From an uncultured Bdellovibrionales bacterium (GTDB lineage Bacteria > Patescibacteriota > Minisyncoccia > Moranbacterales > DUUL01): 64,000 bases of DNA. Made by a program: the position numbers and the translations under genes. Of the stretch, positions 23,464-49,815 are shown piece by piece. The stretch's first letter is position 1, and each line of letters starts with the position of its first letter. The notes beneath the pieces are model-generated. The model saw nothing but the letters and a program-made list of their open reading frames with translations, was not told where the DNA came from and ran no database searches. The stretch covers positions 532 to 64,531 of the forward strand of contig CAYFUG010000004.1 in assembly GCA_964346295.1 (NCBI GenBank). The letters run 5' to 3'.

Positions 23464-23836
23464 TTAGGGGAACTTGAAGGAGGGCTTCCAAATTTTGAAA
23501 ATTTTAGAGCTAGATTATAAAGAGCAGTTCCCCCTTTTGAAGGGGGGTGACCGGTAACAGTCTTTCTGGTTATTAGGGGTTGTAGAAACTAGAAAAGCAA
23601 TTGATTTCAAAACTAAAACTAAAATTAAAATAAAAAAGAGAATTTGATTTGAGTTTAGATATTTGAGCTCAGAGGTTGAGATTGAAAATTAGTTATTAAG
23701 CCAGAAACCCCGCCTCTGGCGGAGTGCAGGGAAAACTAATTTTTATCTATCACTCGCAAGCTCGCTCTGATTCAAATTGTTTTCTCTACAAAATAAAAAT
23801 GAAAATTAAAAGTAGAAAAGGGGGTGAGGAAGCTTA

Positions 23837-24118: not shown

Positions 24119-24260
24119 AACGGAGCCTTACTCATTTTGAAAATTTCGTTGTTGAAATCCGGGCTTCCCTTTCACCGTACACTTCAGTACGGCTCAAGCA
24201 AAGCCTACCTGCCTGTCGGCAGGCAGGGATTTCGCCTAGAACTCTCCTAAAATGAGAAAG
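24119..24260 (+). repeat. dispersed repeat family, B-type module
   Basis: ttgaaaatttcgttgttgaa...caccgtacacttcagtacggctc (CCGTAC/GTACGG hairpin) then ...gcctagaactctcctaaaat. Confidence 0.55.
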
Positions 24261-24377: not shown

Positions 24378-24995
24378 TTGAAGCAAGGCTTTTTAGTTAT
24401 TGCTCATAATATCCGCAGTTGCTACAATGTTGGCTCGATTTTTCGTAGTGCGGATGCTTTGGGCGTGGAAAAGATTTATTTAACCGGCTACACTCCCAGA
24501 CCGGGTGTTTTGGTTACTTCCGATGCTGAAAGTGGTCTTGATAAATTAAGCTTTAAGGTAAATTCTCATTCCGATTCAAATTTAAGTCTCGGAGAAAGAA
24601 GAGGCCCCAAAACGAGCTTTACTGAGGCGCTAAAAGCTAAAAAAGATGCCAAAAAGATTGCTAAAACGGCTTTAGGAGCAGAAGAAGTAGTTGCTTGGGA
24701 ATACCAGAGGCAATTAGGACCACTGATTCAAAAATTGCAGTCGCAAGGGGTGCAAGTGGTAGCTCTGGAGCAAGCTTCTAATAGTCTAAAATTAACTGAT
24801 TTTAAGCCCAATTTTCCTTTGGCGCTGCTAGTGGGTAACGAAGTGCGAGGAATCTCTCCTCAAATACTGAAAAAAGTGGACAAAATCGTAGAAATCCCGA
24901 TGCAAGGAAAGAAGGAGTCCTTGAATGTTGGGGTGGCATTTGGAATCGCCGGTTTTTGGCTCCAAGCTGTTGATTTTGGTAAATTTCGTTGTTGA
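24378..24995 (+). CDS. SpoU/TrmH-family RNA 2'-O-methyltransferase
   Basis: LVIAHNIRSCYNVGSIFRSADALGV motif. The C-terminus FGKFRC-stop is supplied by the dispersed repeat. Confidence 0.7.
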   Translation: MKQGFLVIAHNIRSCYNVGSIFRSADALGVEKIYLTGYTPRPGVLVTSDAESGLDKLSFKVNSHSDSNLSLGERRGPKTSFTEALKAKKDAKKIAKTALGAEEVVAWEYQRQLGPLIQKLQSQGVQVVALEQASNSLKLTDFKPNFPLALLVGNEVRGISPQILKKVDKIVEIPMQGKKESLNVGVAFGIAGFWLQAVDFGKFRC

Positions 24996-25185
24996 AGTCT
25001 CCACTTCTCGCTCACCGTAGCTTTATTACGGCTTGCTTCGATGCTCGACTTCGCCTAGAACCTTACTCAAAATCAATAGCTTGGCCTAGACTGTGGCTGC
25101 TTCAGATTAAACTCAAAATATTGTCTAAAATTTCCTCCCGCTTTTGCCAGTGCTACAGATGGGACAGATAAAACTTGAAAAACTT
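24996..25185 (+). repeat. dispersed repeat, near full-length copy (B+A modules)
   Basis: ctcaccgtagctttattacggc...gcctagaacc... then ...gccagtgctacagatgggacagataaaacttgaaa. Confidence 0.55.
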
Positions 25186-25342: not shown

Positions 25343-28009
25343 GTGGAGAGACTTGTTGTCGATAGAAGTGAAGAGAAGAGAAACGGACCGGAAAGAAATC
25401 CGGGGTTTTTTCAGTTAGCTGCTTATCCAAAAGAAGATTGGGATTTGTTAAGGGCTGTGAATAAGGTGTTGTCGAAAGATAGTAGTCGAGTTTATGGTTT
25501 GCAGAGGGCTTTATTGGATTATCCCGAACTAGGGAACGAAGAGACAAAGGAGGTAATTTTAGAAAAGATGGAAGAAGAACTTTTAAGCATTTATTCTGAT
25601 GATTTAAGACTGGAAAATGGAATAAACTCGATAAAAGATGCTTTTGAGGGAATAAGGGGGATTTATTTAGGGAAAATAGAGACAGAGAAGGTTGTGATCG
25701 AGCGAGTCAACCAGCTTTACCCAGCGGAGTTGGAAGCCTTTGAGGATTTATTGGGCGACTTTATAGTTTATAAAAAAGTTTTACCTAAAGATGTTATTCA
25801 GGCAATTTACAGAAATAGGCTAGAGAAAATTGGAAATGTAAATCTTAATAATCTTTTTAGTTATGGAGATGTAGGCTTAGAAAAAGAGTGTTTAGGGGTT
25901 AATGAAAGAATTTTTGAAGCTCTAGAGGAGCTAGCCTTGTTTTCTGATATTTCCGAAGGTCAGAAAGCGGAACTTTTTCAGTCAGTGGCAAGGGGGTTAT
26001 TTGGAAGGGAAAAAAAGTTTTTTGTAGACCCAGAAAAGGCTTTGAGATTTGTAAGAGTCACTTTTCAAAGTCCAGAGACCAAGCGCTATGCCAAGCCACT
26101 TTTCATGAATTATTGGTGGGAGTGGGAGAATGCTATTGAAAAAATGCAGTCAGAAATTGATTTTGAAGATCAGAGCAAGGAGAATATTAGGAAAATAGCA
26201 GAGTTGGCGGAAATTTACGGGGCAGTTTACGGAGAATTGATAAAGAGGGGAATCGAACCTAATAATGATGGGGCAGTTTACATGTTGAATTTTATTAACC
26301 AGGCGGGAGGAGTAGACGATTTTTACCTTAACTTAAAGGTTAAGCAAGCCGTTTTTCTTATTCAGGCTGATGCTTGCCTTTATTATGAGGAAGGCGAGGA
26401 TTGGCAAAAGGAAGGAAGGGCGCAGTTGATTTATAGTGCGGCTCAAACTTTGGGAACTGATCTGCAGCTTAGTGGCGAGGAGCTGCAGCAATTTTTAACT
26501 GATATAAAAGGTTTTTTTGGGCAAAAATTAACTGCCGAAATTGAACCTCTTGTTAAGGGGCAGGTGGCAGCTCCGGGAGTAGAAGGGCATTTTGATGATG
26601 ATTTTGATCTGGTGCTACTGGAGGAGGAGAGAGGCAATGAAGGTGATAGGCTGAAGTTTAGCGAATTTATTAAGTTGAATTACTACGATGTTATTGAAGA
26701 GGGCGATTTTCTGGATTTGATGTTTATGCAAAATTTATTCATCAAGAAGCGAATTTCCCAGGAGTTAGGCGTGGCTTTGCATAACTTAGAGTTGAGAGCT
26801 CAGAATCAGTTTTTAAACTTCATTAAAAATGCCTCCCAGGAGAGAGTGAGACAAGTGGCAGAATTCGTAAAAAATCCAGCAGAAGAAGAGCAGCGCTTAA
26901 ACCGCCTGAGAGTCTTTCTTTCCTTGGAAGAGGGCCATTTTTCAGGAGATCAGCTATTGGACTTGCCTTCCAGGATTGATGCTGACCAAGCGCAGCAAGT
27001 TTTTGACCAGTATGGGAGACTGGTTCAAGACGCTTTTTCGGAGCAGTCGACCCTTCAAGAAGTGCTAAAGAATCCGGAGGATTTGGCCAAAATTGATCAA
27101 GAAAAAATCACTCAAAATTTGCTCTTCCGAGGCCAAAAAATCCTTCAAAGGCTAATTGAGTCTAGCGAGCCAGAGAGAGAGGCAGAAAGTGTTTTATCCA
27201 GCCTTTTAGCACAAAAATGGCAAATTCAACTAGCGGGAGCAGTTTTTAGGGAAGGGATCGAGGCTGGGATGAGTTTAGATGATTTAGAGGGTGGCAGAAT
27301 TGAGGTTTTAACCGTCCAAGACTTAATTCAAAAACCAGAATTGGTGGCTAAAATGAGGGATATTTATTCTAATAATTTCTCCAAAAAACCTGATTTGCAA
27401 GGAGCGGTTTTGCAAGGATTTGATCAAAAAATGACAGAAGGAGGCGTTAATTCGGAGTTTGCTTTGGCCTTTGTGGGCGAAGAATTGGTGGCTTTTAGCC
27501 GCAGTGATCATGTAGACGAAAAAACTCGCTATTTTGCTTCTCTAAACTCTTCTTATGGCGGTGCCAAGTTTGGAGAAGCTCTGAGGAGGAAAAGAGAGGC
27601 TCAGGTGGGAGAAAATTTTGATATTCGGGCTCATAGTGAGCCAGAAAGTGCCATGAGTACGCTGTATATTGGCCCAGAGGGAGGATTTATAGCCGATGGG
27701 GTAGAATTTAATTATCACAACACCGAGGCTAATTTATTCAGTATTACTAGACAAAAAACCCCGCCCAGTTACTATGCTTGGAGTAAGCCTCGAGAAGAGC
27801 TAGTCAAAGAGGCGAAAGAACTTGCGGATAGTGAGATAAGTAGCATTTCTCTAGAAAAGGGTAAGCCTCTGGTTTTAAGCCTCCAGGGGCTAGAAAATAC
27901 ACTAGTGGCACTAAAAACCCTACTCAATGAGCAGGGCGGCCAGTTGACCAATTATTGGTTTCAGGGCGGAAGATATTTTTTAGCTATAGAAAACCCTAAA
28001 TCAAGCTAA
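25343..28009 (+). CDS. large hypothetical protein (888 aa; start uncertain)
   Basis: Long uninterrupted ORF with no recognisable motifs. Starts with GTG at 25343; the alternative ATG near 25567 follows an AAGGAGG. Confidence 0.5.
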   Translation: MERLVVDRSEEKRNGPERNPGFFQLAAYPKEDWDLLRAVNKVLSKDSSRVYGLQRALLDYPELGNEETKEVILEKMEEELLSIYSDDLRLENGINSIKDAFEGIRGIYLGKIETEKVVIERVNQLYPAELEAFEDLLGDFIVYKKVLPKDVIQAIYRNRLEKIGNVNLNNLFSYGDVGLEKECLGVNERIFEALEELALFSDISEGQKAELFQSVARGLFGREKKFFVDPEKALRFVRVTFQSPETKRYAKPLFMNYWWEWENAIEKMQSEIDFEDQSKENIRKIAELAEIYGAVYGELIKRGIEPNNDGAVYMLNFINQAGGVDDFYLNLKVKQAVFLIQADACLYYEEGEDWQKEGRAQLIYSAAQTLGTDLQLSGEELQQFLTDIKGFFGQKLTAEIEPLVKGQVAAPGVEGHFDDDFDLVLLEEERGNEGDRLKFSEFIKLNYYDVIEEGDFLDLMFMQNLFIKKRISQELGVALHNLELRAQNQFLNFIKNASQERVRQVAEFVKNPAEEEQRLNRLRVFLSLEEGHFSGDQLLDLPSRIDADQAQQVFDQYGRLVQDAFSEQSTLQEVLKNPEDLAKIDQEKITQNLLFRGQKILQRLIESSEPEREAESVLSSLLAQKWQIQLAGAVFREGIEAGMSLDDLEGGRIEVLTVQDLIQKPELVAKMRDIYSNNFSKKPDLQGAVLQGFDQKMTEGGVNSEFALAFVGEELVAFSRSDHVDEKTRYFASLNSSYGGAKFGEALRRKREAQVGENFDIRAHSEPESAMSTLYIGPEGGFIADGVEFNYHNTEANLFSITRQKTPPSYYAWSKPREELVKEAKELADSEISSISLEKGKPLVLSLQGLENTLVALKTLLNEQGGQLTNYWFQGGRYFLAIENPKSS

Positions 28010-28762
28010 TTTTCGGGAATAATCCCAGTGAAATTCGAACAGGGATTTGTGCATTTGGTAAATATTGGGATCTTGGATTAGCATAGCGATTTTGTGTTCT
28101 TCTGAAAGGGAGATGTAAATGACTTTTCCTTCGTAAATTTGCATTACAGAACCCGAGAAGGGGTATTTTTCTTGATCAATAAGCTTAATTTCTGTAATAT
28201 CTCGCAGATAATTTTGCAAGTAATTTTTGGCAAAGGCAGAGTCCAGGACCAGAACCTTTTTGTTAAGGTTAAGCTTGGATCTTTTTTTCATGTAGCACTG
28301 ATTGATTTTTTCGGTGTATTTGATAACAGCCTCCAGGTCGGCATAAGTGTAAATAATTTCTTGACTGGTGAGAGTGTCTTCCAGGGCCTCTTGAATGCCT
28401 TCTAGTCCCTCAAAATAGCGGACGTCAGGTTTCTGAGAAACTAAATTAAATTCTGATGTCAGTGCATCTAGATTGGCCGCTAGGTTTTTATGAGTTTTTT
28501 CTAGTTGGGAAGATTGATCGCGGAGTAATTCTTCTAATTGATTAGGGTGTTGAGGATAAAAATGAGTCAATTTTCCCTTTTTTTTGCTAATTACCAGGCT
28601 TTTTTCTTCTAAAGATTCTAAAACATTGTAAACCACCCCCTTTTGGAGGGTGGTTTTTTTAATGATTTCGCTGGCAGGAACTGCTCCAGAGCGAAGCAGG
28701 AATTCGTAAATAGTGGCTTCATTAGGGGTCAGTCCAACTTGAGTAAGGATGTCTTGGTACAT
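28001..28762 (-). CDS. TrmB-family HTH transcriptional regulator, divergent from GC island 2
   Basis: N-terminus ILTQVGLTPNEATIYEFLLRSGAVPASEI is typical of the TrmB HTH. Paralogous to 39074..39868 and 58052..58837. Confidence 0.7.
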   Translation of the reverse strand: MYQDILTQVGLTPNEATIYEFLLRSGAVPASEIIKKTTLQKGVVYNVLESLEEKSLVISKKKGKLTHFYPQHPNQLEELLRDQSSQLEKTHKNLAANLDALTSEFNLVSQKPDVRYFEGLEGIQEALEDTLTSQEIIYTYADLEAVIKYTEKINQCYMKKRSKLNLNKKVLVLDSAFAKNYLQNYLRDITEIKLIDQEKYPFSGSVMQIYEGKVIYISLSEEHKIAMLIQDPNIYQMHKSLFEFHWDYSRKLA

Positions 28763-28877: not shown

Positions 28878-28906
28878 TTGACAATTTTTTAATAATATGC
28901 TACAAT
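28878..28906 (+). promoter_or_regulatory. sigma70-type promoter of GC island 2
   Basis: TTGACA, 17 nt, TGcTACAAT. Embedded in the TTGACAA...TTGTCAA palindrome. AT-rich UP-like region upstream. Followed by GTCAAGCTAAGAAAAGG. Confidence 0.65.
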
Positions 28907-29108
28907 GCCTTGTCAAGCTAAGAAAAGGGTAAAACTCCGAAGCTTGAAGAACTGAAAGGTTCTAGCCAAATAAGAATAGTTGGCTCTTAGTACATTATAT
29001 CGAGAATAACCACACAACACAAACCACAGGAAAGTTTCTTGCAAGGCTTTTCTAGAGGTGTTTTTTGTGTTGTGGAAACATTCTCTAGCAAGAGCCCTGC
29101 AAAAAACT

Positions 29109-29154
29109 CTCCTATCACGGGGAGTTTTTTGTTCTTTGAAAACTCAGAAATCAG
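29109..29154 (+). promoter_or_regulatory. boxB-like hairpin plus boxA-like antiterminator
   Basis: CTCTCCtatcacGGGGAG hairpin, then gttctttgaaaactcagaaatcag. Confidence 0.55.
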
Positions 29155-29335
29155 TAAAGTGGTTTTCTCCTAGGGCTTTTGTCCTTGGTAGGCAGCTTAG
29201 TGCTTATGAAAGTTTGTAAGCGCTGAGCTGTTTATCAAGCAAGGAAAGCCCGGGCGTCCTAGTCACCGGGAAATTTTACAAAAAAATTATCCGGGCTGTA
29301 CTAGGCAGCCCATTTTTCAGAAAAGGAGAAAGACC

Positions 29336-30526: not shown

Positions 30527-31306
30527 ATGAAACGGATTTTTGTTGTCCCTATCAACGATGGGGAGGCGGTAGAGATTAGGAATCTCCTACAGGATGGCGG
30601 TGAAGTGGTTGTGGAAAGCGTCCTCCGTTGGGGAGCCCGATGGGAGAAGCTGGAACCGGAGGTGGTGGCGGAGATCGAAAGGCTTCGCTCCCTTAATCCG
30701 GGAGTTCAGATCTACGGCGTGGAGCTGGCCGGCCCCAATCAGTGGGGGGCTCGCAACATCGACCACCACAAGTACCAGGATGAGGATCGGAGTAATTCCA
30801 AGTCCTCCCTGGAGCAAGTGGCGGAGTTGTTGGGCGTCCAGCTGACCCGGCACCAATTTTTGGTTTCGGAGAATGACAAGGGTTGGATCCCGGCGCTAAT
30901 AGCGGCCGGAGCCAGTCCCGACGAGATCGAACTGGTGCGGGCGCAGGATCGCCAGGCCCAGGGGGTTACCCCTGACGACGAAGCCCAGGCTCTTCGGGAT
31001 ATCGAGGCGGCCCAGTGGCAAGGTCGGAAGGTCTGGCTCCAGTGTCTCAAGGGGGCCACCTCGGCCCACACTGACCGGCTCTTTGGTCAGTTTGACGAAG
31101 CCCTGACGGTGGATGGGGTCAACGGAAAGTGGATCTATTTTGGTCCGCGATCCGAAGATTTCTTCGCCCTCACCGAAGGGGGCACCGAAGGGATACGCTG
31201 GAAAAGCCCTCGACCAGGGGGGTACTCCGGGGCGGAAAAGCCCCAGGAGGAGACCCAGGAAGCAATCCGGAATTTTTTTGGGAGTAATTCCCTTACCTCT
31301 TTTTAG
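30527..31306 (+). CDS. hypothetical protein, GC island 2 gene 3 (259 aa)
   Basis: RBS TAAGGAGGAG then ATG at 30527. The longer track ORF from 30119 has an R/P/W-rich N-terminal extension that overlaps gene 2 in another frame and is judged spurious. Confidence 0.55.
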   Translation: MKRIFVVPINDGEAVEIRNLLQDGGEVVVESVLRWGARWEKLEPEVVAEIERLRSLNPGVQIYGVELAGPNQWGARNIDHHKYQDEDRSNSKSSLEQVAELLGVQLTRHQFLVSENDKGWIPALIAAGASPDEIELVRAQDRQAQGVTPDDEAQALRDIEAAQWQGRKVWLQCLKGATSAHTDRLFGQFDEALTVDGVNGKWIYFGPRSEDFFALTEGGTEGIRWKSPRPGGYSGAEKPQEETQEAIRNFFGSNSLTSF

Positions 31307-32104: not shown

Positions 32105-32128
32105 GTTCTTTAAAAACTCAGAAATCAG
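32105..32128 (+). promoter_or_regulatory. second boxA-like motif, internal to the island 2 operon
   Basis: gttctttaaaaactcagaaatcag lies between gene 4 and gene 5, as a spacer boxA does in rrn operons. Confidence 0.5.
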
Positions 32129-32269
32129 GAAAATCCAACTTTCTATCTTTTCTCTTTGTCTTCTAAAAGTTGTTGGTTACCCGAGAGAATTTAATCTAGT
32201 TAATGAACTGAATTAGCCAGTTAAGTTTTTTTGGGCAACCAACAACCAAGGAAAGAGAAGGAGGAAGAC

Positions 32270-32518
32270 ATGAGATACCAAGGAGCGAGAGAATACAAGG
32301 GCCAGAGGGTGGAAATCCAGCTGCGGGCTGGGGGCAATAATCCCGGAAACGCCTCGGTAACGCTGGTTATCAAAATGGATGGCCAGGAGGTTTTTCGGAG
32401 AAGTGCCGGCCGAGACGGAATGGGCCAGGTGGAAGCCCTGGCCGTGGCTGAAGTGGCCAAGGTCCAAGAGTTGGGCGAAGAAATATATATCGTCCAGTTC
32501 AATGCCGAAGCTATCTAG
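32270..32518 (+). CDS. hypothetical protein, GC island 2 gene 5 (83 aa)
   Basis: RBS GAAGGAGGAAG then ATG at 32270. Confidence 0.5.
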   Translation: MRYQGAREYKGQRVEIQLRAGGNNPGNASVTLVIKMDGQEVFRRSAGRDGMGQVEALAVAEVAKVQELGEEIYIVQFNAEAI

Positions 32519-32704
32519 CCCTTACCTTAGAATTTTTTTGATTTCTAGGCCCTCTCCATCAGGCCTCCTGCGAAGTTAGCAGGTTTTAAAAATTTGGATG
32601 GTAGTCCGAGCGGCGGAAATGACTCAAAACTATCCGCAAAATTAGCCCTGACAATCAGGGCCGGCCGAGGCAAGCGCAATGCCGCTTTAGCCTAAGAGGC
32701 CACC

Positions 32705-32836
32705 AAAAGGCCCGAAAGAGTCTGGCCAACGCGCTAAATCTTTCGGAGGGACGAACTTGTTGAACACAACATTTTCGTCCCCTCTACTAGCAACTTAATT
32801 TGAGACTTGATCTTTTATTGAGTTGCTTGAGAGAAT
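32705..32836 (+). repeat. 132-bp direct repeat, copy 1
   Basis: Near-identical (2-3 mismatches) to 34004..34136. Contains a GGGACGAA-cttgttgaacacaacatt-TTCGTCCC hairpin. Confidence 0.85.
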
Positions 32837-32924
32837 CTATTTTGAAAGGCGAGTTCTTTGAAATATATCCAAAGCTTCATTGTAATCTTTGGGTACTTCA
32901 ACCAAACCAGAAAAGGGGGATGCC

Positions 32925-33971
32925 ATGGGTAAATTTCAGGAAATCACACTGGAATTATTGTTGGAAAATGAAGTTTTGAGGAAGTATCTTCTCAAGGCAA
33001 GAATTGGTCCAGCTAAAAAAGGCGACGGTGCTTTTGTGGGGACTTATGATATTGCCCCGAAGGAGTTTCGGAGTTTTGGAATTGTTTTGCCCAGGGGCGG
33101 GATGATTATTCCAGGGGCAGATCCTGTCAAGTTAAAGGAAATGGTCAAGGAGCCTGAGCGCCGGCGTGAGGCGGAGGACTTGGCAAATCGTCGTGCTGTT
33201 GAAAAAGATTATCTCAATCAGGTGAAAGAGATAATTGCTGAAGCTGGCCTCACGGATATTGAAGTGGTGGAAGAAGACGGAGTGGACTTCCATAGTATCG
33301 GCGCCACCAGCTGGCACAAGAGCTTTTTGGTAAGAGAAGGAGAGAAAATCTTCAGTCTTCACAGCGAAGAGGAGCCGTATCGTGGCTTAGATGACGATGG
33401 TTCGTACGAGCCGTGGAGGACGGAGTTTACTCCGTTGGAAGAGGTGAAATCCTTCCTTGAAGAGGAGGCGCGTCTTGTTGGTCCGAGAAAAATGTTTGCT
33501 GATCGGATCAGGCGGCTTATTGATATAAGCCACAATGTTGGTCAGCAAGGGCCAGATGAAACTGGCTGGGATCGCCCTCGAGTGGAATTATTTTTGTACG
33601 ATGACTATAAAAAAGGCAGGGACTGGGGTTTTTTCGGTCATCGTTGTCAGGGTATCTCTTCGGCCCACAGGATTTACTATCGAAAAAAACTCTATGAGAT
33701 TACCGAAGAAGGCATTTCTCGCCTTGAGTATGAAATCGGAGAAAGGGAGGAGGCGCTAGAAGCAAGACGAGCGATGCTCAAAAGACTCTTCGAAGAGAAG
33801 GGCAGAGTTTTTGAGGAACTCAAAGAAGAGAAAGATTGCTATGCCGGAAAGTCACTGGCAACCGGCAAGGCAAAGTACGATGAGTGGACTGAAACGCGCT
33901 ACTTTCTCGGCGACACAGAAGTTACCGAGGAAGAGCGTGATTGGCTGAAGGGCTTACCTAAGGATAATTAG
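32925..33971 (+). CDS. hypothetical protein (348 aa) bracketed by the 132-bp direct repeats
   Basis: RBS AAAAGGGGGA then ATG at 32925. Charged soluble protein with no recognisable motifs. Confidence 0.55.
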   Translation: MGKFQEITLELLLENEVLRKYLLKARIGPAKKGDGAFVGTYDIAPKEFRSFGIVLPRGGMIIPGADPVKLKEMVKEPERRREAEDLANRRAVEKDYLNQVKEIIAEAGLTDIEVVEEDGVDFHSIGATSWHKSFLVREGEKIFSLHSEEEPYRGLDDDGSYEPWRTEFTPLEEVKSFLEEEARLVGPRKMFADRIRRLIDISHNVGQQGPDETGWDRPRVELFLYDDYKKGRDWGFFGHRCQGISSAHRIYYRKKLYEITEEGISRLEYEIGEREEALEARRAMLKRLFEEKGRVFEELKEEKDCYAGKSLATGKAKYDEWTETRYFLGDTEVTEEERDWLKGLPKDN

Positions 33972-34003
33972 TGGATAAGGCCCTCAAGACTCTTCAAATT
34001 TTC

Positions 34004-34136
34004 AAAAGGCCCGAAAGAGCCTGGCCAACGCGCCAAATCTTTCGGAGGGACGAACTTGTTGAACACAACATTTTCGTCCCCTCTACTAGCAACTTAATTT
34101 GAGACTTGATCTTTTATTGAGTTGCTTGAGAGAATT
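34004..34136 (+). repeat. 132-bp direct repeat, copy 2
   Basis: See copy 1. Confidence 0.85.
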
Positions 34137-34169
34137 TTGATAGATCTTAGGAAAGTTAATAGATACAGC

Positions 34170-34205
34170 AAAAAAGCGCCGGTATTAGTCCCGGCGCTTT
34201 TTTAT
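34170..34205. terminator. bidirectional rho-independent terminator
   Basis: AAAAAA-GCGCCGG-tattagtc-CCGGCGC-TTTTTT. Confidence 0.75.
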
Positions 34206-34317
34206 TCTACTGCTTTTAGCTATTCAATTCCCCTAATCCCTCCTCCTTTGCTAAAGCTATGGTCGGCAGGCTTTTGTAAGGGGGTTGCTGAGCAGGGAAA
34301 GGCTAAGATCTCTTGAC

Positions 34318-34372
34318 TTCCTCCTTCGTCAAAACTTCGGAGGACAAGACGCTCGGGATGACAAAGAAAAAA
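34318..34372. repeat. dispersed repeat, A-type module copy
   Basis: tccttcgtcaaaacttcggaggacaagacgctcgggatgacaaag. Confidence 0.5.
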
Positions 34373-34373
34373 A

Positions 34374-36866
34374 CTACAATACGGCGCTGGCGGCAATCTT
34401 TTCATTTTTCTTAAGCCGCATAATGCGCACTCCTTGAGTAGCGCGATTAAGGACAGAAATCTTGTCAATGGGAGTGCGAATGATTTGTCCTCGGTTAGAG
34501 CTAACAATCAAATCCGCTTTTTCTTCTTGATCTTCTTGAGTGATGACATGAGCCGCTACCAAGGGGCCGGTTTTTTCCGTCACGAAAGCAGTTTTAATGC
34601 CGCTACCAGCGCGAGACTGAGTTTTGTAGCGCTTGAGGGGAGTTCGTTTGCCGTAGCCGTTTTCCATCAGCACTAGCAATTGATCTTCTTTTTTAGCACC
34701 CGCTTCTTCTTTTCTCTTGCGGATCACGCTCATACTGACAATTTCATCCTCCTTCTTAAGGCGGATAGCTTTGACACCAGCGGCAACTCGCCCCATGGGA
34801 CGAGCCTGACTTTCTTTAAAGCGAATTGATTGGCCCTGGTGAGTAGTCAAGATTAAGTCATCGGTGCCATCGGTGAGACCGACCCAACCCAAGGCGTCAT
34901 CTTCGTCCAAGCGAATAGCGATCATGCCTCCGCGACGCACATTCTCAAAATCCTTGAGGGCGGTTTTTTTGATTTTGCCCTTACGAGTTTGCATCACCAT
35001 GTATTGACACCGGGTATCTTTGGAGACAGCTAGGATGGAAGTTATCTTTTCATCTGGGGAGATTTGAATAAAATTGACAATTGCCTGACCTTTGGCGGTA
35101 CGGGAAGACGGGGGAATTTCGTAAGTTTTCAATTTAAAGACTTGGCCACCACTAGTGAAGAAAAACAGATCGTCGTGAGTCATAGTGGCGAGTACTTTGT
35201 CTACGGCGTCGCCTTCTTTAATATTGCCGCCGGCCACTCCTTGACCACCGCGTTTTTGGCTGCGCAAAATGGTGGGGGCGATGCGTTTAATGTAACCATC
35301 CTCAGTAAAGCTGATAATAGTCTCTTCGTTGGCTACCAAATCCTCTTGAGAAAATTCTCCGGCATTGGAATCGATAATTTTAGTGCGGCGTTCGTCGCCG
35401 TACTTCTTTTTGATCTCTAGGAGTTCCTCTTTGATGATACTCAAGATTTTTTGAGGGTCGGCTAGGATAGTTTCTAATTCTTCAATTAGTTTTAGCTTTT
35501 CCGCTAGCTCTTCCTCAATTTTTTGGCGCTCTAGACCGGCGAGGGTTTGCAAGCGCATCTCCAAAATTGCTTCGGCTTGCCGGTCGGAAAATTTGAATTT
35601 GGCCACTAAGTTCTCGTGAGCCTTTTCTTTGGTAGCGGATCCTCGAATAGTCTCAATTACCTCATTAATGTGATCCAGAGCTTTCTTGAGTCCTTCCAGA
35701 ATGTGAGCTCGCTCCTGGGCCTTCCTTAATTCAAATTCAGTACGGCGAGTAACTACCGTTTGGCGGTGAGCTACATAATATTCCAGCACCGACTTCAAGT
35801 TCAGCACTCGGGGCTCCAGGCCATCCACCAAGGCCAGCATATTCAAATGGAAAGTTTTTTGTAGCTCGGTCATAGAGTAGAGCTGGTTTAAAACTTTCTT
35901 GGGAAAAGTATCTTTTTTGAGCTCGACTACAATTCGGACACCATCCTTGTCAGATTCGTCTCGTAAGTCTTTAATGCCTTCAATTTTACCGGTCTTTACT
36001 AACTGGGCAATTTTTTGAATCAGAGTTGCTTTGTTAGTTTGGTAGGTAACTTCGCTTACTACAATTTGGAATTGACCGTTTTTAACTTCCACAATATCTG
36101 CCTGAGCCCTTGTAACCATGCCGCCTCGACCCGTGGAATAAGCGTTCAAAATGTCCTGGCGATTATAGAGAATGCCAGAGGTGGGAAAGTCGGGACCTTG
36201 AATGTATTTAACTAATTCTTCAATGGTGATATCGGGGTTTTCAATATAAGCAGTGATACCATCCACTAGCTCGCTCAGATTATGAGGAGGAATATTGGTA
36301 GCCATCCCAACCGCGATTCCTAGGGCGCCATTCAAAAGTAATTGAGGAAGTTTGGCGGGTAAGGTGGCTGGTTCTTTGCGAGTTCCGTCGTAGTTTTCTT
36401 TCCAATCCACAGTCTCTTTCTCAATATCAAAGAGCATTTCGTCGGAAATAGATTGAAGCTTAGCCTCGGTGTAACGCATGGCGGCTGGGTTGTCGCCGTC
36501 CATAGAACCAAAGTTTCCTTGGCCTTCTACTAGAGGGTAGCGCAAAGAGAAATCTTGAGCCATGCGAACCATGGCAATGTAAACAGAAGCGTCGCCGTGA
36601 GGATGATATTTACCCAATACCTCACCGACTACGGTGGCGCTTTTGCGGAATTTGGCACTAGAACGCAGACCCAGCTTCCACATGGCATATAAGATGCGGC
36701 GTTGCACCGGCTTGAGGCCATCCCGGACATCCGGCAGGGCGCGGGTAACAATTACGCTCATGGCATAAGAGAGATAGGATTCTTCCATTTCCGAGACAAT
36801 GGGGCGAGGTTGGACTTTTCCGATATTGCTAGTTTCGTTGGATTCGTTTTGGTTGTTGGGTTGCAT
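34374..36866 (-). CDS. gyrA: DNA gyrase subunit A
   Basis: N-terminus ...[33 protein letters not shown]... and the C-terminal beta-pinwheel repeats. Confidence 0.95.
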
Positions 36867-40882: not shown

Positions 40883-42125
40883 AAAGCCTAAGATATTGGT
40901 GGCGCTGAGCGGAGGGGTAGACTCGGCGGTGGCGGCCCTGCTTCTTCTGGAGCAGGGTTTTGAGGTGCAAGGGATTCATTTTTTGCTGAGTAGCGAGAAA
41001 TTGATTAGCGCAGAAAAAGTTCGGTTGATTGCTAATGAATTGGGGGTCGAGCTAGAAGTAAGAGATATTTCTCGGGAGTTTCAAAAAGAGGTGGTGGATA
41101 GTTTTGCTAAAACTTATCAAAAAGGAGCGACGCCTAACCCTTGCGTGATTTGCAACCGGAAGGTAAAATTTAAGCAGTTACTCCAGGCTCGCGAGGAGCT
41201 AGGCTGTGATCTAGTAGCCACCGGACATTACGCACGGATTGCTGCTGGTGAGGGCTCCCTGAAGGCGATCTCCACTCAATCCTCTCAATCTCTCCATCTT
41301 CGCCAGGACTACAGTCGACAGGCTCTACAAAAGGGGGAGACTGAGGGTTTTTTTCTTCAAAAGGCCAAGGATCAGCGCAAGGATCAGTCCTATTTTCTCT
41401 ATCGATTAACCCAGGAGCAGTTGCAATTTTGTCGCTTTCCCTTGGGGGAGCACTTCAAAGATTGGGTCAAGCAGCGGGCTAAAGATTTAAATTTAGGCCT
41501 AGAAAGGCAAGGAGAGTCCCAAGACATTTGTTTTTTTGAGCCAGAGGAAAGCCTGCGAGATTTTCTTGGAAGGCGCTCTAAACAAAACTTTACAGAAGCT
41601 TCAATAATTTCGGACAAAGGTGAGCCTTTGGGGAAATGCGAGGGTTTGGAGTTGTTCACGATTGGCCAGCGCAAGGGCCTAAATCTCAGTGGGGGGCCTT
41701 GGTATGTTTTGAATAGAGATTTCACCAAGCGGCAGCTGGTAGTCACTCGCGATTCGGAAAGCCCGGATTTTTGGCAAAAGGGAATTTTTATCGAGCAAGT
41801 CAACTGGATTAATCAATCTCCTCAGCCGGGAAAATGGTACGACTTGCAAATTCGTTATCAAGGAAAAGTTTATCAAGGGATGCTTGAGAAATTAAAAGAG
41901 GGGCTTCGAGGGCAGGGCGGGGGATATTCCGTCCCCACTCCTACGGGGGTTGCTCAATCCCCCCAGCCCCTCCTCCTTCGCCAGGACTACAGTCGACAGG
42001 CTTTACGAAAGGGGGAGCCTAGCTGGAAGGTTAGCTTGAAGGAGGCGGCCCGGGCGGTAGCAGCGGGGCAATCGTTGGTGGTGTATGAGGGTAGTCAAGT
42101 TTTAGGGGGAGGAATCATCTTCTAG
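40848..42125 (+). CDS. mnmA: tRNA-specific 2-thiouridylase MnmA with two in-frame repeat-derived insertions
   Basis: PP-loop LVALSGGVDSAVAA, NPCVICN, GHYARIA...KDQSYFLYRL, C-terminal SLVVYEGSQVLGGGIIF. About 60 extra residues arrive in two blocks that share the peptide LRQDYSRQAL. Confidence 0.85.
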   Translation: MTLAIMPKNPIKKPKILVALSGGVDSAVAALLLLEQGFEVQGIHFLLSSEKLISAEKVRLIANELGVELEVRDISREFQKEVVDSFAKTYQKGATPNPCVICNRKVKFKQLLQAREELGCDLVATGHYARIAAGEGSLKAISTQSSQSLHLRQDYSRQALQKGETEGFFLQKAKDQRKDQSYFLYRLTQEQLQFCRFPLGEHFKDWVKQRAKDLNLGLERQGESQDICFFEPEESLRDFLGRRSKQNFTEASIISDKGEPLGKCEGLELFTIGQRKGLNLSGGPWYVLNRDFTKRQLVVTRDSESPDFWQKGIFIEQVNWINQSPQPGKWYDLQIRYQGKVYQGMLEKLKEGLRGQGGGYSVPTPTGVAQSPQPLLLRQDYSRQALRKGEPSWKVSLKEAARAVAAGQSLVVYEGSQVLGGGIIF

Positions 42126-42261: not shown

Positions 42262-42330
42262 ATAAGATCCCTCGACTCCCTCCTTCGCCAAGGCTACGGC
42301 GGGCAAGGCGCTCGGGATGACAAACTAAGA
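42262..42330. repeat. dispersed repeat, A-type module copy
   Basis: ctccctccttcgccaaggctacggcgggcaaggcgctcgggatgacaaa. Confidence 0.55.
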
Positions 42331-43021: not shown

Positions 43022-44218
43022 TTGACTTCAAAGAAAAAAAAACAGACCAGTTTTTTAGGGGACAAGAAGGTGGCTTTAGTCCACGATTTTTTGTTATACT
43101 GGGGGGGAGCGGAGGCCACTTTGCAAGTGTTGGCCAAAATGTTTCCTCAGGCGCCGATTTACACCCTGCTTCAGGATGAGCAGTTTACCAAAAAGCACTT
43201 CAGGGGGCGAGAAATCCGGACCTCGTTTTTACAGAAAATTCCCCGCTGGATCCGCAAAAAACACACTCGCTTATTGCCGCTAATGCCAACCGCCATTGAG
43301 TCGCTCAATTTGCGGGATTATGACTTGGTAATTTCCTCCTCTTCGGCTTTTGCCAAGGGAATTGTGGTGAAGCCTAAGACCACCCATGTTTGCTACATGC
43401 ACGCCCCTATGCGTTATGTCTGGGACTACTATCACCAGTATTTTCAAGAGCGCTTTGGCAATCGAGCTAAAATTTTTACCCGGACTTTTCTCAACTACTT
43501 GCGAACTTGGGATCGAGCCAGTGCCGACCGGGCTGATCATCTGGTTGCCAATTCTCGTTACACTGCTCGGCGAATCGAAAAATATTATCGTAGAGAATCC
43601 ATGGTGATTTATCCCCCAGTGGAGGTGGAAAAATTCGCCCTCAGTCCGGACAAGGCAAATTCCAGTATTTCTTCTAGCTCTGATTTGATAGAGAAGCAAA
43701 ATCAGGCCAGGAGAGGTAGCTATTTTTTGACAACGGGGCGCTTAGCGACTTATAAGCGGGTAGATCTTTTGATTGAGGCTTTTCAGAAGCTCAAGTTGCC
43801 GCTAGTGATAGTGGGTGATGGCCCGGAGCGTAAAAAGCTAGAGAAATTAGCCCAAGGGAACAGCAAGATAAAAATTTTAGGCTGGCAAAGTGAGGAAAAA
43901 TTAATTCGACTTTATCAAAATTCCCGGGCCTTTGTTTGTGCCACCGAAGATGATTTCAATATCACTTGCGTGGAGGCAATGGCAGCCGGAACGCCGGTAA
44001 TTGCCTTAAAAAAGGGCGGCGTGCAGGAAACAGTAATCGAAGGTCAGACGGGAATATTTTTCCAGGAGGCACGGTTGGAGCTAGTGGTGGATGGAGTGCG
44101 GCGGTTTATTGAAAAAGAGGCTGATTTTGACTCGGAGGTGATTCAGGCTCGAGCGAGGGAGTTTTCGAGGGAGAGATTTGAGAAGGAGATGCGAAAGTAC
44201 TTGACTTCCATTTTTTGA
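43022..44218 (+). CDS. glycosyltransferase family 4 (RfaG-like)
   Basis: EAMAAGTPVIALKKGGVQETVIEGQTGIFF GT4 signature. Confidence 0.8.
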   Translation: MTSKKKKQTSFLGDKKVALVHDFLLYWGGAEATLQVLAKMFPQAPIYTLLQDEQFTKKHFRGREIRTSFLQKIPRWIRKKHTRLLPLMPTAIESLNLRDYDLVISSSSAFAKGIVVKPKTTHVCYMHAPMRYVWDYYHQYFQERFGNRAKIFTRTFLNYLRTWDRASADRADHLVANSRYTARRIEKYYRRESMVIYPPVEVEKFALSPDKANSSISSSSDLIEKQNQARRGSYFLTTGRLATYKRVDLLIEAFQKLKLPLVIVGDGPERKKLEKLAQGNSKIKILGWQSEEKLIRLYQNSRAFVCATEDDFNITCVEAMAAGTPVIALKKGGVQETVIEGQTGIFFQEARLELVVDGVRRFIEKEADFDSEVIQARAREFSRERFEKEMRKYLTSIF

Positions 44219-44325
44219 AAATTTTGGTGTCAAAATCTCCGCTACTCCCTCACCGTAACTCTCAGTACGCCTCGCTCGCTGCTCGATTTCTCCTAAAAAT
44301 TTCCTAAAAAATGAAAGTCCTTAAA
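44219..44325 (+). repeat. dispersed repeat, B-type module
   Basis: ttttgaaaattttggtgtcaaaatctcc...ctcaccgtaactctcagtacgcctcgctcg...tcctaaaaatttcctaaaaaatg. Confidence 0.55.
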
Positions 44326-48419: not shown

Positions 48420-49652
48420 ATGAAACAAACTAAAATTATTACCGAAAAGTGGGAGCAGGTGAGTCCAAGATTTATCTCTAGCTACCAAAAGACAGGAGGT
48501 TATCAGGATTTGGCTAAAGCCTTAAAAATGGGTCCGGATCAGGTACTTCAAGAGGTGTTAGCGTCTGGTCTGGCCGGTCGGGGCGGGGGCGGATTTCCTA
48601 CCGGAAAAAAGTGGCAAACGGCTTTAGAACAAAAAGCTTCGGAAAACTACTTTATCTGCAATTTGGATGAATCGGAGCCAGGGACTTACAAAGATCGCTA
48701 TTTAGCGGAAAGTAGTCCTCACCAGCTTTTAGAGGGCATTATGATTGCTTCTTTTGCCCTCAAGGTGAAGAAGGCTTACATTTACCTCAATGGAAATTTT
48801 CACGCCGCTCGGCAGTTGCTGCAAAACGCCCTTCAACAAGCCCAGGAAGCCGGATTTTTAGGAGAGAATATCTTGGAGAGCGGTTTTGATTTAGAAATCG
48901 AACTATTCGTGGGGGCGGGGGCCTATATTTGCGGAGAGGAATCAGCTTTGATTAATTCTATTGAGGGTAAAAGAGGGGAGCCACGGCGCCGGCCTCCTTT
49001 TGCTTGTGTTTGCGGACTGCATAATCGCCCTACGGTTGTGAACAACGCCGAAACTATTGCCAACTTGCCTTGGATAATCCAGAATGGCGGCAAGGCTTAT
49101 TCCCGGGTTGGCCTGCCAGATCAGCCGGGTACTAAACTTTTTTCCATCGGGGGAATGGTGCGTAACCCTGGTTTGTACGAGTTTCCTTTGGGCGTCAGTG
49201 TGCGAGAATTGGTTTACAAAGCGGGAATGGGCATGCGGCCAGGATTGGATTTTTGGTTTGCTCAAGTGGGGGGATCAGCCGGTCGCCTGGTAACGCGCAA
49301 TTTATTGGATGAAATTCCTAGTTATTCTCGCAAGGCTCGGATTTCGGTAGGATCGGGGGCGGTGCTGGTGGTAGATAAAAACCAGGACATCAAGGAACTT
49401 TTACTAGCTTGGAGCCGGTTTTTTGCTCGGGAGTCTTGCGGGCAGTGTGTTCCGTGTCGAGAGGGGACTTTCCGTTTGCAGCAGCTTGTAGAGCGCTTGG
49501 GGGGAGAAAATTTCAGTCAAGATGATTGGGAGGACATGCAGCGCATTATTTTCACTCTGGAGCGGAGTACTTTTTGCGCTTTAGGGAAGTTTGCAGCGGT
49601 GGCGATTAAGGATGCGCTGGAGCTGAAGTTGGTGGAGGCTTCCAAATTTTGA
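48420..49652 (+). CDS. NuoF-like NADH-binding FMN/Fe-S flavoprotein (complex I 51-kDa / HoxF-like)
   Basis: GLAGRGGGGFPTGKKW FMN motif. ESCGQCVPCREGT 4Fe-4S motif. The C-terminus EASKF-stop is supplied by the repeat. Confidence 0.8.
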   Translation: MKQTKIITEKWEQVSPRFISSYQKTGGYQDLAKALKMGPDQVLQEVLASGLAGRGGGGFPTGKKWQTALEQKASENYFICNLDESEPGTYKDRYLAESSPHQLLEGIMIASFALKVKKAYIYLNGNFHAARQLLQNALQQAQEAGFLGENILESGFDLEIELFVGAGAYICGEESALINSIEGKRGEPRRRPPFACVCGLHNRPTVVNNAETIANLPWIIQNGGKAYSRVGLPDQPGTKLFSIGGMVRNPGLYEFPLGVSVRELVYKAGMGMRPGLDFWFAQVGGSAGRLVTRNLLDEIPSYSRKARISVGSGAVLVVDKNQDIKELLLAWSRFFARESCGQCVPCREGTFRLQQLVERLGGENFSQDDWEDMQRIIFTLERSTFCALGKFAAVAIKDALELKLVEASKF

Positions 49653-49745
49653 AAATTTTGGTGTTGCAAGCTGCGTTTGGCACTCACCGTACCCTTCAGT
49701 ACGGCTCGCACCAAGCCTCGCTTGCGCCTAAAAATTTCCTAAAAT
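49653..49745 (+). repeat. dispersed repeat, B-type module
   Basis: ttgaaaattttggtgttgcaagctgcgtttggcactcaccgtacccttcagtacggctcgcaccaagcctcgcttgcgcctaaaaatttcctaaaa. Confidence 0.6.
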
Positions 49746-49815
49746 TTGGAAGCCTTAATCCAGCGGTTATTTTTAGTGGGAGATTTTTACAAGTTAACTT
49801 TTAAAATTTATTAAA

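What the first reader, a model, noticed from the sequence alone, without database searches (positions are those of the whole stretch)
32705..34136. A 348-aa orphan gene bracketed by near-identical 132-bp direct repeats with an internal long hairpin
The segments 32705..32836 and 34004..34136 are direct repeats with 2-3 mismatches. Each contains GGGACGAA-cttgTTGAAcacAACAtt-TTCGTCCC, a nested hairpin.

They flank a single hypothetical gene (32925..33971, RBS GGGGGA) immediately downstream of island 2.

Possibilities include attL/attR-like sites of an integrated cassette, a recent local duplication, or a repeat-mediated insertion. No integrase is present.
Basis: seen in the sequence. Interest (0 to 1): 0.6.

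Follow-up and report, generated by a model that had tools for sequence, protein, structure and literature searches.

The report
Duplicated leader hairpins flank truncated gene
A 133-base, hairpin-rich piece of a gene's own upstream leader was recently copied to the spot where the gene lost its last third, so this looks like an ordinary rearrangement scar in a Patescibacteria chromosome and not a mobile gene cassette.

Summary
The repeat is real: 32704-32836 and 34003-34135, 133 nt, 2 mismatches, sharp edges. It is identical in two independent assemblies. It folds into three adjacent hairpins (z = -8.6).

The gene is not an orphan. It belongs to a small Patescibacteria family of about 470 aa. 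Here it lacks the C-terminal ~125 aa, and the right repeat sits 32 nt after the premature stop.

The gene is native to its site. The neighbourhood (large protein, TrmB on the minus strand, 140-149-aa gene, leader, this gene) recurs in relatives.

The left repeat is the gene's native leader. It is significantly similar to the leaders of full-length homologues (L019 and L037, 0/1000 shuffles each). It runs on into a conserved boxA-like box (GTTCTTTGAAAT, 32853) that the right copy lacks.

There is no integrase, no third copy in the window, no match in any collection scanned, and no flanking repeats around eight full-length homologues.

Best reading: a recent local duplication or template switch tied to the deletion that truncated the gene.

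By-product: many relatives carry a covariation-supported type III hammerhead at the same leader position.

The parts
32704..32836 (+). R-left: the native, hairpin-rich 5' part of the gene's leader (intercistronic region after the 82-aa gene).
   Evidence: Repeat copy 1. Significantly similar to the leaders of full-length homologues: L019 scores 46 against a shuffle mean of 23 (0/1000), L037 scores 41 (0/1000), L024 p~0.025. No similarity to regions downstream of homologues.
32712..32746 (+). Hairpin 1 of R-left. Holds both differences between the copies.
   Evidence: RNAfold. The 32735 U/C difference keeps pairing (G-U versus G-C). 32721 is in an internal loop.
32748..32781 (+). Hairpin 2 of R-left: long stem with an internal loop.
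   Evidence: RNAfold. The same long-hairpin-with-internal-loop architecture, with different sequence, occurs in the L019, L023, L024 and L037 leaders.
32782..32833 (+). Hairpin 3 of R-left, followed by a U-rich stretch.
   Evidence: RNAfold. Sequence-level conservation with L019 (CTTAATTT, TTGAGAGAA) and L037 (GCAACTT..TTTGAG..TTGAT).
32853..32864 (+). BoxA-like box GTTCTTTGAAAT, 17 nt after R-left. It is not part of the duplication.
   Evidence: One of 6 matches in the window, all on the + strand and upstream of + strand genes (0/100 shuffles reach 6). Also present in the leaders of L019, L021, L023 and L024. Compare the published boxA consensus GYTCTTTAANA (PMC5725501).
32913..32920 (+). Ribosome-binding site AAGGGGGA.
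   Evidence: Read from the sequence. The resulting N-terminus MGKF matches the homologues' MxKF.
32925..33971 (+). 348-aa gene: a C-terminally truncated member of a ~470-aa Patescibacteria family of unknown function.
   Evidence: Homologues share 44-60% identity over 97-99% of the window protein but are 440-540 aa long. tblastn homology ends at about 33950. In the AlphaFold model of P0002 the missing part is the C-terminal beta-rich domain, residues ~350-473.
33954..34002 (+). Junction segment of unknown origin: a new C-terminal tail (LPKDN), the stop codon, and 31 nt.
   Evidence: No homology to the family beyond about residue 343; the in-frame continuation scores about zero. No source found elsewhere in the window.
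34003..34135 (+). R-right: the derived copy of the three leader hairpins, without the boxA-like box or the rest of the leader.
   Evidence: Repeat copy 2, 98.5% identical. Followed by unrelated sequence. No boxA-like match after it.
34170..34203 (.). Bidirectional intrinsic terminator (A-run, GCGCCGG/CCGGCGC stem, T-run) shared with the convergent gyrA.
   Evidence: Read from the sequence. Terminator-like structure is what the weak sRNA model hits picked up.
34374..36866 (-). gyrA, the convergent downstream neighbour. It marks the chromosomal context.
   Evidence: Pfam DNA_topoisoIV 1.7e-163. Best named relatives are Moranbacteria/Patescibacteria.
28878..28906 (+). Probable operon promoter TTGACA-17-TACAAT, ahead of island 2 and this gene.
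   Evidence: Read from the sequence. The same promoter plus the first transcribed bases GTCAAGCTNAGAAAAGG recurs at 9129 and about 59190.

Best explanation
This is the scar of a recent local rearrangement inside a conserved chromosomal operon of a Patescibacteria (Moranbacteria-like) genome.

Ancestral state (inferred from relatives): promoter, upstream genes, a structured leader (hairpins, then a boxA-like box, then the RBS), then a ~470-aa gene.

In this genome the last ~125 codons of the gene, and whatever lay beyond them, were lost. A 133-nt copy of the hairpin part of the gene's own leader now sits at the deletion junction, just ahead of the terminator shared with gyrA.

Two routes give exactly this arrangement (left repeat, gene 5' part, right repeat):
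- a single replication template switch, with the fork stalling at the stable hairpins;
- a tandem duplication of [leader + 5' two-thirds of the gene], followed by deletion of the distal copy from just after the hairpins.

Shown: the repeat and its sharp edges, the truncation, the conserved gene neighbourhood, the homology of the left copy to native leaders, and the absence of a recombinase.

Inferred: the order and mechanism of events. Also inferred is that the native leader acts at the RNA level. In other words, hairpins plus a boxA-like NusB/NusE site would support read-through and processing of the polycistronic transcript, where relatives use a hammerhead ribozyme instead.

The right copy is most likely a passive by-product. 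At most it is a stable 3' end for the shortened mRNA. The two 133-bp direct repeats also make the truncated gene deletable by homologous recombination.
For: 1. The repeat is real, 98.5% identical and sharply bounded, and reproduced in two independent assemblies.
2. The family alignment shows the window protein stops at about residue 343 of about 470. tblastn homology ends at about 33950. The C-terminal domain is not encoded anywhere else in the 64 kb.
3. Gene neighbourhood is conserved: the window's 888-aa, TrmB, 149-aa and DHH 258-aa proteins match neighbours of full-length homologues in L019, L024 and L004.
4. R alone is significantly similar to the leaders of L019 and L037 (0/1000 shuffles each) and weakly to L024 (25/1000). 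It is not similar to any downstream region of homologues, nor to the region downstream of gyrA in the closest relative.
5. The conserved box GTTCTTTGAAA follows R-left and the homologous leaders, but not R-right.
6. No integrase, transposase or recombinase domain in 40 ORFs. No tRNA in the window.
7. R has no third copy in the window. A hairpin-2 pattern gave no match in genome, metagenome or viral collections.
8. Eight full-length homologues elsewhere have no flanking direct repeats.
Against: - No close relative showing the pre-rearrangement state was found. The only 90%-identical gyrA contig has a different neighbour.
- There are two novel junctions, so either two events or one complex event is needed.
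- The 49-nt junction segment has no identified source.
- The repeat edges enclose the three-hairpin block almost exactly (8 nt before hairpin 1, 3 nt after hairpin 3). Random breakpoints would not be expected to do that. It fits hairpin-induced fork stalling, but it also fits R being a discrete, copyable module.
- The rest of the genome could not be searched, so the genome-wide copy number is unknown.
- Gene conversion between two older leader copies cannot be excluded.
Confidence: 0.65

Rival explanations
1. Integrated cassette. A circular or foreign DNA fragment carrying R plus the 5' two-thirds of the gene recombined with a resident R next to gyrA (Campbell-type, by homologous or site-specific recombination), leaving attL/attR-like copies.
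For: The arrangement (left repeat, insert, right repeat) with sharp edges is exactly what single-crossover integration produces. The repeat is strongly structured, as many recombination sites are. In some relatives the gene family lies next to IS110 transposases.
Against: - The gene and its left-hand neighbours are in conserved order in relatives, and R-left is homologous to the native leaders of full-length genes. So the gene was there first.
- The model needs a resident R without the gene. No relative shows that. The region downstream of gyrA in the closest relative has no R.
- No integrase or transposase in the window.
- R was not tested for any published att or attC core. It is three separate hairpins, not one long imperfect hairpin.
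- The family is absent from the phage and plasmid collections.
Confidence: 0.1
2. R is a small dispersed structured repeat (REP/BOX/ERIC/MITE-like) of this genome. It happens to have two copies here, one of which inserted into or beside the 3' end of the gene.
For: - R is a compact block of three hairpins, and its edges coincide with the block.
- The window does contain other short intergenic repeat families.
- Only 64 kb of the genome could be examined.
Against: - There are only two copies in 64 kb, 1.3 kb apart, and none elsewhere in the window.
- No terminal inverted repeats or target-site duplication are visible at the edges.
- R-left is homologous to leaders of the same gene in other genomes. 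That is not expected for a lineage-specific selfish repeat.
- Insertion alone does not explain the missing 3' third of the gene.
Confidence: 0.1
3. Functional duplication. R is an RNA processing or stability module standing in for the hammerhead that relatives carry. Having it on both sides delimits a unit-length, protected (or even circularisable) mRNA for a deliberately shortened protein.
For: - Relatives carry a covariation-supported type III hammerhead at the same leader position.
- Ribozymes flanking single genes are known in prophages (PMC3088659).
- R is unusually stable on the sense strand (z = -8.6, against -4.85 for the antisense strand).
- The truncation removes a whole domain cleanly.
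Against: - R matches no ribozyme family, even at E <= 10, and has no CUGAUGA/GAAA core.
- Homologous leaders share architecture but few unpaired conserved nucleotides, unlike a catalytic core.
- Hammerhead-bearing relatives showed a hammerhead core motif only in the upstream leader, never in the region downstream of the gene.
- No other member of the family has this arrangement.
Confidence: 0.07
4. Assembly artefact: a collapsed or mis-joined repeat in a metagenome assembly.
For: The source is a metagenome-assembled contig. Short-k Logan contigs break inside R (L017, L026).
Against: Two independent assemblies from different runs agree base for base. The two copies differ at two positions, and the exact shared stretch (~101 nt) is shorter than the final k-mer (127, inferred from the contig labels). 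The Logan breaks are what a k=31 graph does at any repeat.
Confidence: 0.02

Closest known systems
Local segmental duplication, or template-switch (replication-based) rearrangement scars, in bacterial chromosomes
   Same: Two near-identical direct copies about 1.3 kb apart with sharp edges. One copy is in its native context. The other is at a deletion junction that truncates a gene. No recombinase is involved.
   Different: The copied piece coincides almost exactly with a three-hairpin RNA module. A 49-nt filler of unknown origin lies at one junction. The mechanism is inferred, not shown.
rrn / lambda nut-type antitermination leaders (boxB-like hairpin followed by boxA; NusB/NusE site). Published boxA consensus GYTCTTTAANA (PMC5725501; PMC10250234)
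   Same: The native leader has stable hairpins followed by GTTCTTTGAAAT. The window holds six such boxes, all in the sense orientation upstream of genes, each preceded by a hairpin. One (32105, GTTCTTTAAAAA) matches the published consensus exactly.
   Different: These are upstream of protein-coding genes in a Patescibacteria genome. No rRNA leader of this lineage was available as a control. Nus factor binding is untested. The duplicated segment R excludes the box.
Hammerhead ribozymes (type III, Rfam RF00008) in bacterial and prophage intergenic regions, sometimes flanking single genes (PMC3088659)
   Same: Seven homologous loci carry a type III hammerhead at the leader position that R occupies here. 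All three stems are supported by compensatory changes. The U4C core variant seen in four of them is a known natural variant.
   Different: R itself has no hammerhead core and no Rfam match. The relatives showed a hammerhead core motif only upstream of the gene, never downstream of it.
Integron gene cassettes bounded by attC sites (for example Vibrio VCR repeats of about 120-130 nt)
   Same: A single ORF bracketed by ~130-nt structured direct repeats of high identity.
   Different: No IntI-type integrase. R is three hairpins rather than one imperfect hairpin with paired R''/R' core sites. The ORF is a truncated resident gene with its own leader and RBS, not a promoterless complete cassette. There are two repeats only, not an array.
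Dispersed structured intergenic repeats (REP/BIME, BOX, ERIC, Correia/MITEs)
   Same: Similar size (~130 nt), several stem-loops, intergenic location.
   Different: Only two adjacent copies are known. No terminal inverted repeats or target duplication. The sequence is homologous to gene-specific leaders in other genomes.

Membership tests
Integron cassette / attC | Tyrosine-recombinase integron integrase (IntI) at or near the array | tested here: not met
   No integrase or recombinase Pfam domain in 40 ORFs across the 64-kb window.
Integron cassette / attC | attC is a single imperfect hairpin whose base is formed by the R''(RYYYAAC)/R'(GTTRRRY) core sites | tested here: not met
   R folds into three separate hairpins. 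The bases of the stems are GGGACGAA/TTCGTCCC and CUCU/GAGAG, not the core sites. The only GTTRRRY match seen by eye (GTTGAAC) lies across the inner stem and loop of hairpin 2.
Integron cassette / attC | Cassettes are complete, mostly promoterless ORFs, mobile between contexts | tested here: not met
   The ORF is a truncated resident gene in a conserved gene neighbourhood with its native leader.
Prophage/ICE attL-attR | Integrase plus direct repeats bounding a multi-gene element, often at a tRNA | tested here: not met
   No integrase. No tRNA in the window. The interval holds one truncated gene.
Dispersed repeat / MITE | Many copies per genome | tested here: inconclusive
   Two copies in 64 kb. 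No match in the public collections with a hairpin-2 pattern. The rest of this genome is not available.
Dispersed repeat / MITE | Terminal inverted repeats and target-site duplication | tested here: not met
   The ends AAAAGGCCCG... and ...TTGAGAGAAT are not inverted repeats. The flanks share no duplication.
Hammerhead ribozyme (RF00008) | Core CUGAUGA...GAAA with three stems and a cleavage site H17 | tested here: not met
   For R: no Rfam hit at E <= 10 over 32500-34350, and no core motif in the leader. For the relatives' leaders the feature is met: 16 pairs, 97.3% of cells paired, 11 pairs with compensatory changes, although Rfam scores of 38-39.5 bits are below the gathering score of 48.5.
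BoxA / nut-like antitermination leader | BoxA sequence matching the consensus (GYTCTTTAANA in gamma-proteobacteria) in the sense strand of the transcript | tested here: met
   GTTCTTTGAAAT at 32853 has 1 mismatch to the consensus (G for A at position 8). There are six such boxes in the window, all on the + strand upstream of + strand genes; 0/100 shuffles reach 6. Consensus from PMC5725501. The box lies outside R.
BoxA / nut-like antitermination leader | Binding of NusB/NusE and an antitermination effect; the same box in the lineage's rRNA leader | not testable with these tools
   No rRNA operon in the window or the fetched loci. Needs a binding assay or the genome's rrn leader.
Segmental duplication / rearrangement scar | Direct orientation, high identity, sharp boundaries, one copy in ancestral context and one at a novel junction | tested here: met
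   (edges). (only the left copy's context is ancestral). (the right copy is at the truncation point).
~470-aa Patescibacteria protein family (unnamed) | Full-length alignment to family members, including the C-terminal beta-rich domain | tested here: not met
   The N-terminal 343 residues align at 44-60% identity. The C-terminal ~125 residues are absent. So this is a truncated member.

The most novel reading that the evidence does not exclude
R is a self-contained functional RNA module for processing, stability or antitermination, which replaced the hammerhead ribozyme in this sub-lineage. On this reading its presence on both sides of the ORF is not a scar. It would be a working arrangement that delimits a unit-length, hairpin-capped (possibly circularisable or excisable) transcript encoding a deliberately shortened protein. 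That would be a ribozyme-free analogue of the ribozyme-flanked genes of prophages.
Probability: 0.06. Interest if true: 0.6.

Novelty: new member of a known kind. Interest (0 to 1): 0.3.

Why it matters
The repeat-gene-repeat structure itself is an ordinary rearrangement scar. It matters mainly as a caution: direct repeats around a single 'hypothetical' gene need not be att sites.

The more useful results are by-products. A small, unannotated Patescibacteria gene family sits behind leaders that carry one of two things. One is a type III hammerhead ribozyme, supported by covariation in seven loci. The other is stable hairpins plus a boxA-like box.

The window also holds six such boxA-like modules upstream of protein-coding genes. 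Two of them lie next to divergently transcribed TrmB-family regulator genes.

If the box is a true NusB/NusE site, this would point to Nus-dependent control of protein-coding operons in a lineage where almost nothing is known about transcription control.

Tried and rejected
**R as a known RNA.** No Rfam family at gathering scores over the whole window, nor at E <= 10 over 32500-34350. Only terminator-driven sRNA noise appeared.

**R elsewhere.**
- blastn and nhmmer against all 37 fetched loci found it only in contigs of the same organism.
- A hairpin-2 pattern found nothing in genome, metagenome or viral collections.

**Empty site or alternative arrangement.**
- The closest gyrA relative (90% aa, L018) has a DUF4143-type gene downstream of gyrA and no R.
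- A look-up of the 82-aa upstream protein returned only the same arrangement.

**Decayed homology beyond the repeat edges.** None under four scoring schemes.

**Coding continuation past the stop into R-right.** BLAST extended an alignment to P0006, but its net score is about zero. Rejected as chance.

**C-terminal domain encoded elsewhere as a split gene.** Not in the window.

**Source of the 49-nt junction and of the sequence after R-right.** None found in the window.

**Protein function.**
- No Pfam, PHROG or PADLOC family, and no PDB sequence match.
- The AlphaFold model (pLDDT 79) has no Foldseek match in the PDB.
- No phage or plasmid homologue.

**Hammerhead in L004.** It looks canonical by eye and fits the covariation alignment, but Rfam did not report it at E <= 1.

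**The box as a sigma-70 -35 element.** Rejected by eye: no consistent -10 hexamer follows it at the six sites (sequences).

**MAFFT alignment of the hairpin leaders.** Too poor for formal pair counts. For R-type leaders I therefore claim conserved architecture and sequence similarity only, not covariation.
Full report
**1. Observation**

The window holds two direct copies of a 133-nt segment, at 32704-32836 and 34003-34135. They are 1299 nt apart and differ at two positions, 32721 and 32735, both T/C. A 40-nt core occurs exactly twice in 64 kb and never in shuffles.

Sequence beyond either edge is no more similar than shuffled sequence under several scoring schemes, so the edges are sharp.

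The + strand of the segment folds into three adjacent hairpins (32712-32746, 32748-32781, 32782-32833). Free energy is -55.6 kcal/mol and z = -8.6 against dinucleotide shuffles. The reverse strand is less exceptional, at z = -4.85. One of the two differences keeps a base pair (G-U versus G-C). The other lies in an internal loop.

Two independent assemblies from two sequencing runs of the same microbial-mat study are identical to the window across the whole structure. The longest exactly shared stretch is about 101 nt. That is below the final assembly k-mer of 127, as read from the 'k127' contig labels. It is not an assembly artefact.

**2. The gene is not an orphan, and it is truncated**

The 348-aa product of 32925-33971 has 23 homologues at E down to 1e-127. 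A profile search of 1.84 billion representatives finds 67 clusters.

Almost all full-length members are 440-540 aa. In the alignment the window protein matches residues 1 to about 343, then departs (…DWLKG|LPKDN*) where the others continue (…EWLNTFLGEIKVP…) for about 125 more residues. tblastn homology ends at about 33950.

In an AlphaFold model of a full-length member (pLDDT 79), the missing part is the C-terminal beta-rich domain. That domain is not encoded anywhere else in the window.

The right repeat begins 32 nt after the premature stop. So it sits where the last third of the gene should be.

The family has no Pfam, PHROG, PADLOC or PDB match, no Foldseek match, and no phage or plasmid homologue. 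Its function remains unknown.

**3. The gene is resident, not inserted**

The organism is a Patescibacteria bacterium near Moranbacteria: gyrA is 66-72% identical to gyrA proteins that sources name as Moranbacteria or Patescibacteria. The window is ordinary chromosome, carrying gyrA, GcpE, SecDF, MreC, MnmA and RNase P RNA.

Relatives with the full-length gene share the left-hand neighbourhood:
- In L019/L020 the order is large protein, TrmB on the minus strand, a 140-aa gene, the leader, then the 471-aa gene.
- L004 has TrmB and a DHH-family gene upstream.

The window's 888-aa, TrmB, 149-aa and DHH 258-aa proteins match these neighbours.

All genes from a strong promoter at 28878 to the terminator at 34170-34203 are on the + strand. 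So 'island 2' and this gene probably form one operon.

**4. Which copy is the original**

R alone (133 nt) is significantly similar to the leaders of the full-length gene in L019 and L037:
- L019: score 46 against a shuffle mean of 23; 0/1000 shuffles reach it.
- L037: score 41; 0/1000 shuffles; 33 of 40 bases identical across the hairpin 2 / hairpin 3 junction.
- L024: weaker, 25/1000.

R is not similar to regions downstream of homologues, nor to the region downstream of gyrA in the closest relative.

Independent folds of the L019, L023, L024 and L037 leaders give the same picture: two long hairpins just upstream of a conserved box.

In the window the left copy runs on, after 17 nt, into that box (GTTCTTTGAAAT, 32853), then the RBS. 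The same box is in the L019, L021, L023 and L024 leaders. The right copy is followed by unrelated sequence and the terminator.

So the left copy is the native leader, and the right copy is derived.

**5. What it is not**

- No integrase, transposase or other recombinase domain occurs in the 40 ORFs scanned, and there is no tRNA.
- There is no third copy in the window. A hairpin-2 pattern found nothing in the genome, metagenome or viral collections.
- Eight full-length homologues in other genomes have no flanking direct repeats.
- R matches no Rfam family, even at E <= 10.
- R is three hairpins, not a single attC-like hairpin, and has no terminal inverted repeats.

**6. Best explanation**

A recent local event removed the 3' third of the gene and left a 133-nt copy of the leader hairpins at the junction. 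Only 2 differences in 133 nt point to a recent event.

Two routes fit. One is a single replication template switch. The other is a tandem duplication of [leader + 5' two-thirds of the gene], followed by deletion of the distal copy.

The repeat edges enclose the hairpin block almost exactly. That fits fork stalling at very stable hairpins. It is also the main reason I keep some weight on R being a discrete module.

Weak points are the lack of a pre-rearrangement relative, the 49-nt junction segment of unknown source, and the unknown copy number in the rest of the genome. I put this explanation at 0.65.

Rivals are Campbell-type integration of an R-bearing fragment (0.10), a dispersed repeat (0.10), a functional two-sided RNA module (0.07) and an assembly artefact (0.02).

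**7. How the native element probably works (inference)**

The box matches the published boxA consensus GYTCTTTAANA (PMC5725501) exactly at 32105, and with one mismatch at the other sites.

Six such boxes occur in the window: 9960, 11434, 29131, 32105, 32853 and 59262. All are on the + strand and upstream of + strand genes. Each is directly preceded by a hairpin. None of 100 shuffles reaches six matches.

Hairpin followed by boxA is the layout of rrn and lambda nut leaders. The likely role is Nus-factor loading, so that RNA polymerase reads through the hairpin-rich intercistronic regions. This is untested, and the lineage's rRNA leader was not available as a control.

**8. By-product: hammerheads in the relatives' leaders**

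In seven other loci, the leader position occupied here by R carries a type III hammerhead. On their alignment:
- 97.3% of cells are paired.
- 11 of 16 pairs show compensatory changes.
- Slid controls fall to 34-47% paired.

Rfam scores are sub-threshold: 38-39.5 bits against a gathering score of 48.5, with E about 1e-5. One locus is not reported by Rfam at all.

Four loci have the core variant CCGAUGA (U4C), a known natural variant (PMC3088659). The L024 leader keeps only the 3' half of the motif. This suggests that the hairpin-type leaders, including R, are hammerhead leaders that lost the catalytic core. That last step is inference.

**9. Verdict**

The cassette reading is not supported. The local-duplication reading is supported, with one addition: the gene is a truncated resident gene, and the repeat is a piece of its own leader.

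The structure itself is ordinary. The leader biology around it, hammerheads and boxA-like boxes in a Patescibacteria gene family, is the part worth a follow-up.

Noticed in passing
L001 5826-5882; L006 5820-5876; L028 2318-2375; L035 2437-2493; L034 187-243; L029 531-601; L004 5685-5756: Type III hammerhead ribozymes sit in the leaders of the full-length homologues. All three stems are supported by compensatory changes (97.3% of cells paired, 11 of 16 pairs). Four loci carry the U4C core variant CCGAUGA. Rfam scores are below the gathering threshold, so these would be missed by standard annotation. L029 has a second, more complex hammerhead-like motif just downstream of the first.
   Followed up: yes
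window 9960, 11434, 29131, 32105, 32853, 59262 (+ strand): Six boxA-like boxes (GTTCTTTGAAAA and one-mismatch variants). Each is directly preceded by a hairpin and lies 70-260 nt upstream of a + strand gene. Several of these genes are in the GC-rich islands. This is a possible Nus-factor antitermination regulon on protein-coding genes.
   Followed up: partly
window 9129-9178, 28878-28928, about 59185-59235: Three near-identical promoter modules: TTGACA-17-TACAAT/TACACT followed by GTCAAGCTNAGAAAAGG. Two of them are divergent from TrmB-family regulator genes (28001-28762 on the minus strand, 58052-58837 on the minus strand). Each leads into a hairpin plus boxA-like leader.
   Followed up: partly
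window 9130-10170: More than 1 kb of non-coding, hairpin-rich sequence between a strong promoter and the first gene of GC-rich island 1. There is no Rfam match. It could be a very long leader or an undescribed large RNA.
   Followed up: no
window 30530-31306 (+): The 258-aa gene in island 2 matches PADLOC DHH_CorA, a DHH-family hydrolase associated with type III CRISPR CorA (E = 8e-31). It is homologous to the gene just upstream of the family member in L004. The listed 395-aa ORF from 30119 is probably over-extended.
   Followed up: partly
L027, L028, L031, L033, L001, L006, L032: first 10-70 nt after the stop codon of the family gene: Many full-length homologues have (A)GTTCTTTG, again boxA-like, directly after or close after the stop codon, followed by a terminator-like hairpin. 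The window's truncated gene has lost this element.
   Followed up: no
window 44205-44324, 49639-49758, 24122-24206, 23470-23505, 24975-25033; also 34304-34365 / 42263-42324 and 41275-41342 / 41953-42020: Other short intergenic repeat families (77-89% identity) are scattered in the window, unrelated to R. One copy lies between the terminator and the 3' end of gyrA.
   Followed up: no
window 29131-29158 and 32105-32132: A 28-nt direct repeat (93%) brackets most of island 2. It is simply two boxA-like boxes with the same following bases (GTTCTTTRAAAACTCAGAAATCAG), not an island boundary.
   Followed up: yes
L006-L010 (upstream of the 177-aa / 473-aa gene pair): In one clade, the family gene and its upstream 177-aa gene lie next to IS110-family transposases, restriction enzymes and methyltransferases, so there the pair sits in variable, mobile-element-rich DNA. 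The 177-aa protein has a weak PHROG RNase H match (E = 3.4e-4) and an N-terminal FDAETNG motif that looks DEDD-exonuclease-like by eye.
   Followed up: no
search result: The family is modular. The first ~90 residues occur at the N-terminus of many otherwise different proteins. The C-terminal part (profile positions ~255-470 or ~337-468) occurs in short stand-alone proteins. Some of these may be contig-end fragments.
   Followed up: no
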